DNA of 63,769 bases, filler included, from Octopus bimaculoides (Eukaryota): assembly GCF_001194135.2 (NCBI RefSeq). It is 4 parts of 4 records of this genome, joined end to end, with 100 filler letters (N's around TTAATTAATTAA, not from the genome) between each part and the next. Parts side by side here need not be neighbours in the genome. Positions count along the whole stretch, not along the records: positions 1 to 30,794 come from NC_069000.1; positions 30,895 to 58,451 come from NC_068994.1; 2 more parts are not named here. One strand, given 5' to 3'. How positions within the stretch are numbered: position 1 is the first letter of the stretch; each line of letters starts with the position of its first letter. Made by a program: the position numbers and the translations under genes. This document shows, one piece after another, positions 9,680 to 52,325 of this stretch. The notes beneath the pieces are model-generated. The model saw only the letters and a program-made list of their open reading frames with translations. It was not told the DNA's origin and made no database searches.

Positions 9680-9840
9680 TTATTTTCCCTCCGTCTTCCT
9701 TTTCTGTCGTCTGTTTCTGAAGAAGAGCTTTGCTCGAAACGTAAAACCACCTTTCTTTCCTTCCCTGAGCGTCTGCTAATACTTTGCATGTATCACGTCC
9801 TCGCGTTGTGGTTTTTTTGTGTTTGTTCTTCGTTTTTTAT
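9680..9840 (+). mobile_element. Short Penelope-derived terminal repeat carrying a hammerhead motif
   Basis: Similar to 14750-14935(-): GAAGAGC..GCTCGAAACGT.AAA..TTCC..GAGCGTC..CTAATAC..GTCCTCG. Bounded by microsatellites. Confidence 0.6.
9713..9747 (+). ncRNA. Minimal type I hammerhead ribozyme motif
   Basis: Stem I GUUU/AAAC; core CUGAAGA plus extra A; stem II GAGC-UUU-GCUC; GAAA; loopless helix III ACGU; cleavage triplet GUA (after 9743). Confidence 0.7.
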
Positions 9841-11324
9841 TTATATATACATACATACATATACACATACATACATGCATACATACATACATACATACAT
9901 ACATACATACATACTGGTGAGTATGTGTCTGAATATCTGTATTTATATGCGTGAGTGTACAGATAGAGAAGAAGGAGGGAAACAGAGAGACGCTTGATGC
10001 TTTTGGTTAGAAAACAGCTTTAGTTGTTAAGTTTTTCAAAGTGTCAAAACATAACGGCTTCAGTCGTTCCCGCGCAGTTCGCGGCTTGTTGCCCATGTTG
10101 GGAGCCATTATTACTCTTTTTACGTAGTAATTTCAACTTTAATGCGTAAATAAATAGCTTGATACCGTATGAATGCATTCATGTACAATATACTGTGGTT
10201 ATTTACATCTAAATATACACAGGCAAATGTTTGAGCCACACACACACACACACACACACACACGCAAACACATAGACAAAAGCAAAACACATACACTCAC
10301 ACATGCATACACACATACACACACTCACGCATGCACACACTCACTCACACATGCACACACCTTTCGACGTATGTGTTATAAGTATGTACGCACATATATA
10401 CATAAATATATACACATACATACATACATCCATACATCCATACATCCATACATACATACACACACACACACACATATATATATATATATATATATATATA
10501 TATATATATATATATATATATATATATATGTATATTTTGGCACATATGTATACACACACACATATAACGAGCGTGTACATGTATTATTTATTACTGTACA
10601 AACACAAAATGGTCCAAGTATCAGCGCGGTTTTCTTTTCTCTTCTTATTTATCAATGTTGTTGATACCGTCGTCGTTGTTGTTGTTGTTGCTGTTGTCGT
10701 TCTGTCGTTGTAGCTTGAATTAGCATTAAATCAAAGTAGGTTTTGTTTTTATAATGGTAGACAAAGAACTCTTTCAGTTAAGTTATGTCACCAGTCCTAA
10801 ACATTGCCACATCTCCCAATCAGTATCAAGCATCGGACATTAGAGATTAGCTTCCCCCAAAGCTATAAAGCAAAAGTACGAGTTCAGTTTCTTCCCTTTT
10901 GTCTGTTTTTTGTCTTTTTTTTCTGTGCAATTTCTACTTTTAGAATAACATTTCTCATTTTTTGTTTATTTCTACGAAATAAAAATGGGTGGGAACAATA
11001 TTACAAAAATCTCCAGATAACATTTCCAAATAATATGCTTCACTTATTGCCAACGATTTCAGTAAGTAGATCTTTGCACAAACTATAATGGACACACACA
11101 CACACACACACACACACACACACATACATGTATATATATATATGTATATATATGCATATATTATATATGTATTATATATATATATATATATATATACATA
11201 TATACATACACGCACACACATATATATACATATACATACATAGACATATATATATGTATATATGTACGTATACATATATATATTTATATATATAGATGTG
11301 TATATATACATGTATGTACGTACG

Positions 11325-11425
11325 TACGAAGCCTGATCAATAAGTATCCGGACAGTTGCCATAGAAACGAATCTAAAGCAAGCAGAATGAAGCTGCTCGG
11401 CACAGATTGACCTTGAACTCTGCTG
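11325..11425. mobile_element. Mariner-type terminal fragment
   Basis: TACGAAGCCTGATCAATAAGTATCCGGAC resembles a TACGAGG..TCAA.AAGTA mariner TIR; embedded in TA-rich repeat. Confidence 0.5.
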
Positions 11426-11487
11426 TGGAAGCCTTTAGTATATATATATATATATTTGTATGTATGTATTCATATATGTACATACAT

Positions 11488-11675
11488 GTGTGTGCATGTC
11501 TTTGTGTTTGTACCCCGAACCGCTTGATACGATGTTGGTTTGCTTATGTCAACATAACTTAGCTTTTCGGCAAAGAGACCAATAGAATAAATACCAAGCT
11601 TAAAAATAAGTCCTGGGATCGATTTGTTCGACTAAACACTCCAAGGCGGTGCCCCGGCATGGCCATAGTTCGTAA
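11488..11675 (+). mobile_element. SINE family A, 3' half
   Basis: Reverse complement of the family A tail (GATCGATTTGTTCGACTAAA..GGCGGTGCCCCGGCATGGCC). Confidence 0.8.
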
Positions 11676-11679
11676 TGTA

Positions 11680-11860
11680 GTTCCTCAGGGACATTCAGTG
11701 TGACACAGAATGTGACACGGTTGGCCCCTTTGAAATACAGGTACAACTCATTTGTGAAATAAAGAGTCTTGCTAAAAGACACAACGCGCCATCAGGTATC
11801 GAAACTCACTACCTTACGATTGTGAACCGAATACCCTAACCACTAAGCCACACCCCTTTA
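11680..11860 (-). mobile_element. SINE family C, internally deleted
   Basis: Minus head GTGTGGCTTAGTGGTTAGGGTATTCGGTTCACAATCGTAAGG..GTTTCGATACC with A/B-box-like motifs. Confidence 0.75.
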
Positions 11861-50946: not shown

Positions 50947-51245
50947 AAGCCGGATATTGTTGTTTGGGACAGACAAAAAAAAAAAACGGATCTACCGTTA
51001 TCGAGGTCAGCTGACCTGTTGATGCGAATATCTCTTTGAAAACCAAAGAGAAAGAAGATAACTGTGTACAACTGTTTCGAAGCTTCCAGCCTCAATGTCC
51101 AGATTACAAATTTACATTTATACCAGTAATAAATGGTACACTTAGTAGTATAAGTATACGCCTAACTATCGGTCTGTATGAGCTTGGATTTTCAGAAAAA
51201 GATATCAGCCGACTGACTCACACATTACAAATACAATCTGTACTC
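50947..51245 (+). mobile_element. RLE-type LINE fragment, diverged subfamily, starting at a (CATA)n edge
   Basis: KPDIVVWDR...VIEVS...KEK...[11 protein letters not shown], a PD-(D/E)xK-type endonuclease motif. Confidence 0.85.
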
Positions 51246-51317
51246 TTTTGCACGGAAGTGACAGTGAGGGGCGCCTCTTACAGCAGGCGTTCAAACAGTT
51301 ACTATCTACTTTGTCAC

Positions 51318-51705
51318 ATGTGGAGGCGCAATGGCCCAGTGGTTAGGGCAGTGGACTCGCGGTCATAGGATCGTGGTTTCGATTCCCAGACCGGGCGTTG
51401 TGAGTGTTTATTGAGCGAAAACACATAAAAGCTCCACGAGGCTCCGGCAGGGGATGGTAGCGAACCCTGCTGTACTCTTTCACCACAACTTTCTCTTACT
51501 CTTTCTTCCTGTTTCTGCTGTACCTGTATTTCAAAGGGCCAGCCTTGTCACACTCTGTGTCACGCTGAATCTCCCCGAGAACTACGTTAAGGGTACACGT
51601 GTCTGTGGAGTGCTCAGCCACTTGCACGTTAATTTCACGAGCAGGCTGTTCCGTTGATCGGATCAACTGGAACCCTCGACGTCGTAAGCGATGGAGTGCC
51701 AACAA
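51318..51705 (+). mobile_element. SINE family C, full length
   Basis: tRNA-like A box TGGCCCAGTGG and B box GGTTTCGATTCC; tail GGAGTGCCAACAAC. Confidence 0.93.
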
Positions 51706-51967
51706 CTTTGTCACATACCTCCATTCTATCATGAAATCTTTTGTTGAGTGTTTTACTTTTCTTGGCAAATGGCAAAATAACAACCAAATCTCCCTTAATT
51801 CCTTTCTACTAAAAGCACAAGGCCTGAAATTTTTGGGGGAGGGAGCTAGCCATTACATCGATCCCAGAATTCGACTGGTATTTGTTTTATCATGCCCTAG
51901 GCATGTCAAATTAAAAAAAATAATCTTGTTATTAGAATGCCATTTGCATGCTTACATATATTTTAGC

Positions 51968-52212
51968 GTAGAGGCGCGTGGCTTAGTGGTTAGGGTGTCA
52001 GCATTATGATCGTAAGATTGTGGTTTCGATTCCTGGACCGGGCAACGCGTTGTATTCTTGAGCAAAACACTTCATTTCACGTTGCTCCAGTCCACTCAGC
52101 TGGCAAAAATGAGTCACGCTGCGATGGACTGTCGTCTCGTCCAGCTGGGGAACACATACGCCATTGAAACCGAGAAACCGGGCCCATGAGCCTGGCTGGG
52201 CTTTAAAAGGGC
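51968..52212 (+). mobile_element. SINE family C variant (short)
   Basis: GGCGCGTGGCTTAGTGGTTAGGG..GGTTTCGATTCC head; tail shared with 27850-27945. Confidence 0.88.
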
Positions 52213-52289
52213 GCATTTATTATTATTACGCTTCCGAAAAAAAGAAAAACCGTTGGAAAACAGTTTATAGCAGAGACTCCAGCAAATAA

Positions 52290-52325
52290 GATCTGAAGAA
52301 GGAATTCTAATTCCGAAATATCATC
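52290..52325 (+). ncRNA. Minimal type I hammerhead ribozyme motif (AUAU helix III)
   Basis: Stem I GAU/AUC; CUGAAGA plus A; perfect stem II GGAAU-UCUA-AUUCC; GAAA; AUAU palindrome; AUC site at 52322. Confidence 0.7.

What the first reader, a model, noticed from the sequence alone, without database searches (positions are those of the whole stretch)
9713..52325. Dispersed set of dimer-dependent minimal hammerhead ribozymes from at least three repeat families
Seen: four clear motifs (9713+, 14844-, 36406-, 52290+) with the layout stem I / CUGANGA / extra A / stem II / GAAA / 4-nt palindrome / H / stem I'. Stem I and stem II sequences differ between families but still pair, like covariation, which argues against chance. 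Known: Penelope-like elements carry minimal type I hammerheads with a rudimentary palindromic helix III proposed to cleave as dimers (Cervera and De la Pena 2014). An extra nucleotide between A9 and G10.1 is known from the CChMVd viroid hammerhead. A PLE GIY-YIG remnant is present at 2560-2800. Inference: this genome carries several short non-autonomous PLE-derived or retrozyme-like families at high density. I do not know whether they have been described for this species.
Basis: partly seen in the sequence, partly recalled or inferred. Interest (0 to 1): 0.75.

Follow-up and report, generated by a model that had tools for sequence, protein, structure and literature searches.

The report
Octopus Penelope ends with variant hammerheads
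The four motifs are hammerhead-ribozyme folds in the end-repeats of Penelope-like jumping genes in what is likely an octopus genome, a known arrangement, but about half of some 25,000 copies carry a changed core letter and one family carries a tRNA-like segment that likely acts as its promoter; self-cutting is untested.

Summary
All four motifs are real, and a fifth lies at 33830-33870. A genome-wide pattern gives 25,309 matches against 127 for its reversed control.

They are the minimal hammerheads of Penelope-like element (PLE) end-repeats. Cervera and De la Pena 2014 already list the extra A, the G10.1-C11.1 pair and the palindromic helix III. Families B, C and D link to RT/GIY-YIG coding sequence; A is linked only by homology to B. 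Copies are mostly solitary stubs, not retrozyme arrays: 0 of 47 have a same-strand neighbour.

Two features go beyond what I found in print:
(1) U replaces A6 in 11,840 of 25,309 matches (families B and E), while positions 7 and 17 vary and G17 is avoided.
(2) Family C, a Poseidon-type element whose ORF runs through the hammerhead, has a tRNA-like A/B-box head, and 25 of 30 copies start near its +1.

This scan noted both features before on other genomes. RNA-seq shows no cleavage-site pile-up, a weak test. The window is about sevenfold denser than the genome average. Lunse 2017 could not be read.

The parts
9713..9747 (+). Family A minimal hammerhead (canonical CUGAAGA core, ACGU palindrome, A17)
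   Evidence: core intact in 25 of 30 best copies
9683..9837 (+). Family A pLTR-like stub between microsatellites; homologous to family B; no coding link found
   Evidence: 77% over 70 nt to B; no RT/EN hit in 41 A-type loci
14844..14880 (-). Family B minimal hammerhead with U6 core (CUGUUGA), ACGU palindrome, C17
   Evidence: (30 of 30)
14752..14949 (-). Young family B pLTR stub (copies 99% identical), 3' end on (TA)n; lineage has a Neptune/Nematis-type CX4CxxC linker
36406..36451 (-). Family C minimal hammerhead (CUGAUGA, ACGU, U17), lying in frame in the start of the PLE ORF; one stem II change in this copy
   Evidence: (L332, 855-codon open frame)
36320..36501 (-). Family C pLTR tail (ORF start, hammerhead, variable 3' end); in other copies it follows a tRNA-like head and (AAT)n, which this copy does not show
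36502..36677 (-). Short (AAT)n tract plus the 3' end of an unrelated LINE (R4/Dong-like, label recalled) standing in front of the family C tail; runs into an assembly gap
   Evidence: (L031-L041; L036 shows head, AAT, LINE, AAT, tail)
52290..52325 (+). Family D minimal hammerhead (CUGAAGA, AUAU palindrome, C17)
   Evidence: CUGAAGA in 28 of 30
52228..52454 (+). 5'-truncated 3' end of a PLE (family D); longer copies reach GIY-YIG coding sequence and many carry an inverted copy
33830..33870 (+).
   Evidence: three other copies also U6
33731..33965 (+). Family E partial tandem (period about 149 nt) ending on (AAT)n; no coding partner found
2577..2897 (-). Frame holding a PLE GIY-YIG remnant (Pfam match about 2670-2786) of the lineage that carries family B hammerheads; its own 3' end runs into a gap
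   Evidence: 10 of 29 relatives have a B-type hammerhead downstream

Best explanation
The motifs are minimal type I hammerhead folds in the terminal repeats (pLTRs) of at least three lineages of endonuclease-bearing Penelope-like retrotransposons, and the window copies are short, mostly solitary stubs that the parent elements' own reverse transcriptase likely inserted into AT-rich microsatellites. Shown: coding links for B, C and D; 5' truncation; inverted partners; microsatellite flanks; the family C ORF running in frame through the hammerhead; clustered 5' ends in B and C. Inferred mechanism: a transcript starts at the pLTR promoter. The RT likely begins copying about 80-140 nt downstream of the hammerhead core, as shown in vitro for the anole element, and runs off the RNA's 5' end, giving 200-300-nt stubs with a preferred start. 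In family C that start is +1 of a captured tRNA-like segment, likely a Pol III promoter, so these stubs are SINE-like. Cleavage would need two copies (a tandem element or in trans) and probably the PLE protein, so most solitary genomic copies are predicted to be inert. The U6 core of families B and E is likely a slowed but still constrained ribozyme.
For: Family C: 29 of 30 endonuclease-plus-head loci continue into the hammerhead tail; an 855-codon open frame runs through the hammerhead into RT (RVT_1, E 1.1e-10) and GIY-YIG, as in PAc (PMC11167929). Family D: L062 and L070 reach endonuclease coding that is 88% identical to a GIY-YIG-annotated protein and matches RT-containing proteins. Family B: L107 holds RT end, CX4CxxC linker, GIY-YIG, 3' UTR and hammerhead in order; 10 of 29 relatives of the window remnant have a B hammerhead downstream, 9 of 10 with U6. 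Context: 40 of 47 solo, 7 with an opposite-strand partner, 0 same-strand. 5' ends: 25 of 30 position-ordered C heads start between -20 and +12 of tRNA +1 (one abuts a gap), against about 16% expected from the five longer copies; 16 of 28 B copies start 52-80 nt upstream of the core. Head: A box at +8, B box at +53; 1 in 200,000 random 250-mers match; no T4 run in 23 of 25 head-to-tail units. U6: 11,840 of 25,309; in 30 ordered U6 loci N7 is U/C/G (16/7/7) and H17 is U/A/C (12/11/7), never G.
Against: No cleavage or transcription start is shown. Unstranded RNA-seq (about 6% of three runs read) has no start or end pile-up at the cleavage site or at tRNA +1; 74-79% (C) and 56-59% (B) of reads run on into unlike sequence, as expected for read-through of dispersed copies. 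No coding link was found for A (0 of 41 loci) or E. Rfam and ARAGORN do not call the head a tRNA. Clustered 5' ends also occur in B, which has no tRNA head, and both hot spots sit at small palindromes, so RT stalling or fold-back could explain them. Low T4 content of the ORF is only suggestive (1 observed; 2.0-5.0 expected by control, P 0.03-0.36), and the B lineage is also low. N7 and H17 counts reflect a few subfamily events, not 30 independent ones. Isolated motifs fold no better than shuffles (z -0.7 to +0.1), and the one-core dimer model is far from the cofold minimum in all five.
Confidence: 0.8

Rival explanations
1. The short copies are independent non-autonomous elements (SINE- or retrozyme-like) that are transcribed and re-mobilised on their own by PLE proteins. 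This is the first reader's view, and it is most plausible for A, E and the tRNA-headed C stubs.
For: A looks like a discrete unit of about 200-230 nt with no coding link in 41 loci. E is a partial tandem of about 149 nt. C stubs carry their own A/B boxes and lack T4 runs. Retrozymes are proposed to derive from pLTRs (bioRxiv 10.64898/2026.07.22.740005).
Against: Both C sequence subtypes also occur joined to the ORF. Tandem arrays are absent (0 of 47; 4 of 180 homology-selected loci have a same-strand pair, 3 of them between different families). Retrozymes are defined by canonical hammerheads in tandem units (PMC7229834).
Confidence: 0.25
2. The 5'-end pile-up in family C is structural: RT stalls or folds back at the palindrome and tRNA-like fold, and the head is a passive SINE fragment captured in the pLTR of a Pol II-transcribed element.
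For: Many junctions at +1 are fold-backs or inversions. B shows a similar hot spot at a small inverted repeat without any tRNA head. Other tRNA-headed repeats with similar heads exist in the genome.
Against: The hot spot falls on +1 of the tRNA numbering, the A and B boxes are intact while the stems have decayed, and T4 runs are absent from the unit and scattered, not shared, in 34 ORF copies.
Confidence: 0.35
3. The U6 motifs are dead ribozymes: A6U was fixed by drift because cleavage is dispensable, and the stems persist only as a protein-binding structure.
For: A natural A6C variant cleaves slowly, below 0.1 per min (PMC3088659). Hammerhead mutants do not affect PAc insertion in vitro. U6 lets the core pair with the helix III strand into a rod in the predicted monomer of B.
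Against: U6 spans old and 99%-identical young subfamilies and a second family with other stems, while the other core letters stay and only positions 7 and 17 change, avoiding G17. The search pattern itself fixes most core letters, which weakens this argument.
Confidence: 0.35
4. The motifs are chance matches in AT-rich repeat DNA.
For: Single motifs are short and fold no better than shuffles; Rfam reports no hammerhead.
Against: 25,309 against 127 control matches; 5 against 1 in 30 shuffles; stems pair in unselected matches; fixed place in PLE pLTRs.
Confidence: 0.01

Closest known systems
[quoted passage not shown]
   Same: Type I layout, extra nucleotide between 9 and 10.1, G10.1-C11.1, palindromic 15.2-16.2 without loop, short stem I, many families per genome, mostly solitary, opposite-strand pairs 100-700 bp apart; mollusc examples (Lottia, Crassostrea) have the same layout.
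   Different: No octopus entry in the searched file. Its consensus has A6, and U6 was not found there. No tRNA-like head is mentioned in the parts read.
PAc, Poseidon of Anolis carolinensis (Frangieh 2024, PMC11167929; parts 1-2 of 4 read)
   Same: ORF start overlaps the hammerhead; variable 3' tail; AT-rich targets; RT then C-terminal GIY-YIG (family C).
   Different: Family C adds a tRNA-like head and (AAT)n inside the pLTR. Nothing is assayed here.
Neptune/Nematis-type PLEs (Craig 2021, PMC8557442; passages and section 11 read)
   Same: Family B lineage has a CX4CxxC linker before GIY-YIG and inserts at (TA)n.
   Different: U6 core fixed across subfamilies. Clade assigned from motifs only, no tree.
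Schistosoma Sm-alpha SINE-like hammerhead repeats (seen only through the review PMC6765202, section 11 part 2)
   Same: Pol III-type promoter followed by a hammerhead.
   Different: Those occur as tandem non-coding repeats whose hammerhead was shown to cleave. Here the head is part of a coding PLE's pLTR, the hammerhead is minimal and copies are solitary.
Metazoan non-LTR retrozymes (PMC7229834, passages; bioRxiv 10.64898/2026.07.22.740005, part 1 of 5)
   Same: Short, AT-rich, type I hammerhead, PLE-related.
   Different: Retrozymes are tandem units with canonical hammerheads and circular RNAs; tandem units are absent here except the partial repeat of family E.

Membership tests
PLE minimal hammerhead (min-HHR) | CUGANGA and GAAA core | tested here: met
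   A 25 of 30, C 29 of 30, D 29 of 30 best copies keep CUGANGA (best matches, so biased towards similarity)
PLE minimal hammerhead (min-HHR) | A at core position 6 in families B and E | tested here: not met
   U6 in 30 of 30 B copies, 4 of 4 E copies, 11,840 of 25,309 genome matches: a core variant
PLE minimal hammerhead (min-HHR) | Extra nucleotide after A9, G10.1-C11.1, palindromic loopless helix III, H17 not G | tested here: met
PLE minimal hammerhead (min-HHR) | Stem I and II pairing kept across families | tested here: met
   40 of 47 and 39 of 47; 30 of 30 against 17.2 swapped
PLE minimal hammerhead (min-HHR) | Self-cleavage as a dimer, not as a monomer | not testable with these tools
   No assay; RNA-seq shows no pile-up but is a weak test
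EN+ Penelope-like element | RT plus C-terminal GIY-YIG upstream of the hammerhead-bearing pLTR | tested here: met
   C. B. D: endonuclease end directly, RT through homologues
EN+ Penelope-like element | Coding link for families A and E | tested here: inconclusive
   None in 41 A-type loci or 4 E copies; A is homologous to B
EN+ Penelope-like element | 5' truncation, inverted partner, variable tail, microsatellite targets | tested here: met
Non-LTR retrozyme | Tandem units of 150-450 bp, each with a hammerhead | tested here: not met
   0 of 47 ordered loci and 4 of 180 homology-selected loci have a same-strand pair; E is a partial tandem only
Non-LTR retrozyme | Circular RNAs | tested here: inconclusive
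   Only a few 'goes back' joints in standard RNA-seq, not separable from genomic rearrangements
tRNA-derived SINE (family C stubs) | A and B boxes at tRNA spacing, no T4 terminator in the unit | tested here: met
   A box +8, B box +53 (box patterns recalled); 23 of 25 units without T4
tRNA-derived SINE (family C stubs) | Head assignable to a specific tRNA | tested here: inconclusive
   Rfam and ARAGORN negative; only 8 tRNA calls available locally, z 1.7-4.0
tRNA-derived SINE (family C stubs) | Non-coding lineage independent of its partner | tested here: not met
   The head is built into ORF-bearing copies of both subtypes
tRNA-derived SINE (family C stubs) | Pol III transcription from +1 | not testable with these tools
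   Only indirect: 25 of 30 starts near +1

The most novel reading that the evidence does not exclude
A protein-coding Penelope element uses a captured tRNA-derived Pol III promoter in its pLTR, shedding thousands of hammerhead-bearing SINE-like stubs and perhaps transcribing the whole ORF. Alongside it, two other lineages have spread with an A6U hammerhead that still cleaves when protein-assisted, a natural core variant making up about half of this genome's minimal hammerheads.
Probability: 0.3. Interest if true: 0.7.

Novelty: new variant of a known kind. Interest (0 to 1): 0.43.

Why it matters
The basic finding is ordinary: PLE hammerheads in one more animal. The variants are more useful. 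What PLE hammerheads do is still open, and a young lineage with a fixed A6U core next to an A6 sister family (A and B share stem II) is a ready natural comparison. Descriptors that require CUGANGA would miss about half of the motifs here. A tRNA-type promoter inside a coding PLE would give a direct route from a PLE to a SINE and would explain stubs with a fixed start.

Tried and rejected
Rfam scans found no hammerhead or tRNA (one search was swamped by microsatellite hits, 150 of 407 shown). The repeat finder was uninformative because of N runs and microsatellites. A de novo MAFFT alignment did not align the motifs structurally. Two B copies 3.2 kb apart on C2 are not the ends of a full element: no ORF of 170 codons or more. 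No RNA holder was listed among the indexed runs, so raw-read runs of the same species label were laid instead. No splice joint with GT..AG ends at the B hammerhead, so a splice-acceptor reason for U6 has no support. The protein atlas was unavailable; a pairwise D-versus-C comparison was weak (E 0.025). Cofolding gave no energetic support for the active dimer. The 22295 + motif has a core but no good stem II or palindrome and no second copy in the sampled DNA, so it was not counted. Lunse 2017 was not held. Literature searches without a relevant hit: hammerhead + octopus, hammerhead + A6U (58), CUGUNGA (67), Penelope + pLTR + tRNA + polymerase III (50), SINE + 'mobilized by Penelope' (88), five-term SINE search (22). 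PMC13282606 has no 'hammerhead' or 'ribozyme' (75) and PMC5786205 no 'Penelope' (89).
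Full report
Observation. The window is a pack of four stretches; the motifs lie in two of them, on contigs C20 and C14 of a 2.34-Gb genome. All four motifs are present with the stated layout. The one at 14844-14880 has CUGUUGA instead of CUGANGA. 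A fifth motif, also with U6, lies at 33830-33870. A descriptor allowing one core mismatch gave 5 hits in the window against 1 in 30 shuffles together, and 3 in 536,267 non-N bases from 60 evenly spaced stretches against 1 in 4 shuffles. A genome-wide pattern gave 25,309 matches against 127 for its reversed control, about 11 per Mb. The window is about sevenfold richer than average (5 against 0.69 expected). Among 47 position-ordered matches, stem I paired 3 bp or more in 40 and stem II in 39, although the pattern fixes only the first stem II pair.

What each family is. Family C (36406) is the pLTR of a Poseidon-type PLE. Of 30 loci chosen for endonuclease end plus head, 29 continue into the hammerhead tail. 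L332 has an 855-codon open frame that passes through the hammerhead into RT (RVT_1, E 1.1e-10) and GIY-YIG. Family D (52290) copies are 5'-truncated at varied points and often carry an inverted copy; two of 30 reach endonuclease coding sequence. That piece is 88% identical to a GIY-YIG-annotated Octopus bimaculoides protein and also matches RT-containing proteins. This, with the repeat landscape, is why I call the genome likely an octopus. Family B (14844) is young, with best copies 99% identical, but has old subfamilies. L107 shows RT end, CX4CxxC linker, GIY-YIG, 3' UTR and hammerhead in order. Family A (9713) shares stem II and 77% over 70 nt with B but showed no coding link in 41 loci. Family E is a partial tandem with no partner found.

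Genomic context. Copies are mostly alone: 40 of 47 solo, 7 with an opposite-strand partner, none with a same-strand neighbour within 1.5 kb; 4 of 180 homology-selected loci had a same-strand pair. This fits PLE insertion stubs, not retrozyme arrays. It also means most copies could not dimerise in cis.

The U6 core. A pattern with U6 gave 11,840 matches against 71 reversed, 47% of the total. It is fixed in 30 of 30 young B copies, 9 of 10 old ones and 4 of 4 E copies, which have different stems and an AUAU palindrome. In 30 ordered U6 loci, position 7 was U, C or G and position 17 was U, A or C, never G. These are the positions a hammerhead leaves free, which suggests continued constraint. The counts reflect few subfamily events, and the pattern fixes most other letters. 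A natural A6C variant is slow but active (PMC3088659, passages). In the predicted B monomer, U6 helps the core pair with the helix III strand into a rod, a possible lock; this is speculation.

The tRNA-like head. In family C the ORF's 3' end is followed by a 75-nt segment, then (AAT)n, then the hammerhead tail. The segment has an A box at +8 and a B box at +53, at tRNA spacing; the recalled box pattern matched 1 of 200,000 random 250-mers. Its stems are decayed, and Rfam and ARAGORN do not call it. One exact 30-mer occurs 1,460 times. Of the first 30 such copies by position, 25 begin between -20 and +12 (one abuts a gap) and 5 extend 49-396 nt into the element; the longer copies imply about 16% for such a window. 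Head-to-tail units lack T4 runs in 23 of 25. The intact ORF has 1 run against 2.0-5.0 expected (P 0.03-0.36), and 34 copies show 19 scattered runs in 55 kb; this is suggestive only. Against a promoter-specific reading, 16 of 28 B copies also start within 52-80 nt of the core without such a head, and many C junctions are fold-backs at a small palindrome. The window copy itself shows no head: a LINE 3' end stands in front of its AAT tract and runs into a gap.

Expression. Three unstranded RNA-seq runs from one study (about 6% of each read) gave 7,566-10,792 reads on C and 3,234-4,323 on B. Most run on into unlike sequence, and there is no start or end pile-up at the cleavage site or at +1. Depth rises at the genomic 5' hot spots, as read-through of dispersed copies predicts. 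Fragmented libraries are a weak test of cleavage.

Mechanism. Shown: PLE origin of B, C and D, truncation pattern, solitary state, U6 and the head. Inferred: transcripts start in the pLTR, and the RT primes internally downstream of the hammerhead, as in PAc, where cleavage needed protein and was not required for insertion (PMC11167929, parts 1-2 of 4). The RT then runs off the 5' end, leaving stubs with a preferred start. In C that start is a likely Pol III promoter. Cleavage would need a dimer; cofolding gave no energetic support for it.

Comparison and novelty. PMC4209133 (parts 1-2 of 4; supplement file 2 searched, file 1 unavailable) already describes the extra nucleotide, the G-C pair, the palindrome, family diversity, solitary copies and weak dimer activity. 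I did not find U6 or a tRNA-headed pLTR in print. Lunse 2017, the most relevant paper on variants, was not held and was seen only through a review (PMC6765202); Repbase and Dfam were not available. Unchecked notes of this scan report the PLE-end reading on this genome, A6U in other animals and a tRNA-headed PLE in other genomes, including an octopus. I had reached these three readings before looking; the notes prompted only the whole-ORF T4 test. Verdict: real, mostly known, with two untested variants; interest 0.43.

Noticed in passing
window 15350-15490, minus strand: A hammerhead-like element with a damaged first core, a long stem II, GAAACGU and then a second CUGAUGA about 25 nt downstream.
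   Followed up: partly
window 22295-22330, plus strand: CUGAUGA-A...GAAA with poor stem II and no palindrome; no second copy in the sampled DNA.
   Followed up: partly
window 36502-36677 minus; L031-L041, L249: The 3' end of a LINE with a restriction-like endonuclease C-terminus (R4/Dong-like and TAA-targeting, both recalled; listing only) repeatedly sits in the (AAT)n tract of family C.
   Followed up: partly
L025:1500-1775, minus strand: An old family B copy lies head-to-tail 155 nt upstream of a family A copy, a possible hetero-dimer with matching ACGU palindromes.
   Followed up: no
L226:1275-1400: A family B copy in which RT N-terminal coding sequence (DKG motif region) is joined directly to the 3' UTR, an apparent internal deletion.
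   Followed up: no
L421, L422, L423 (C1): Further hammerhead-like families with other stems; L421 has U6 and G17, L423 has G17.
   Followed up: no
L097, L103, L118 (random sample): Other repeats with A/B-box tRNA-like heads resembling the family C head, a possible source of the captured segment.
   Followed up: no
P0001 (protein hit): An annotated 958-aa protein joins a family D RT-end/GIY-YIG piece to a host-like domain (PF05672); possibly a gene-model artefact.
   Followed up: no
window 53812-53842, minus strand: A 31-nt fragment of the family C tail with no hammerhead.
   Followed up: no
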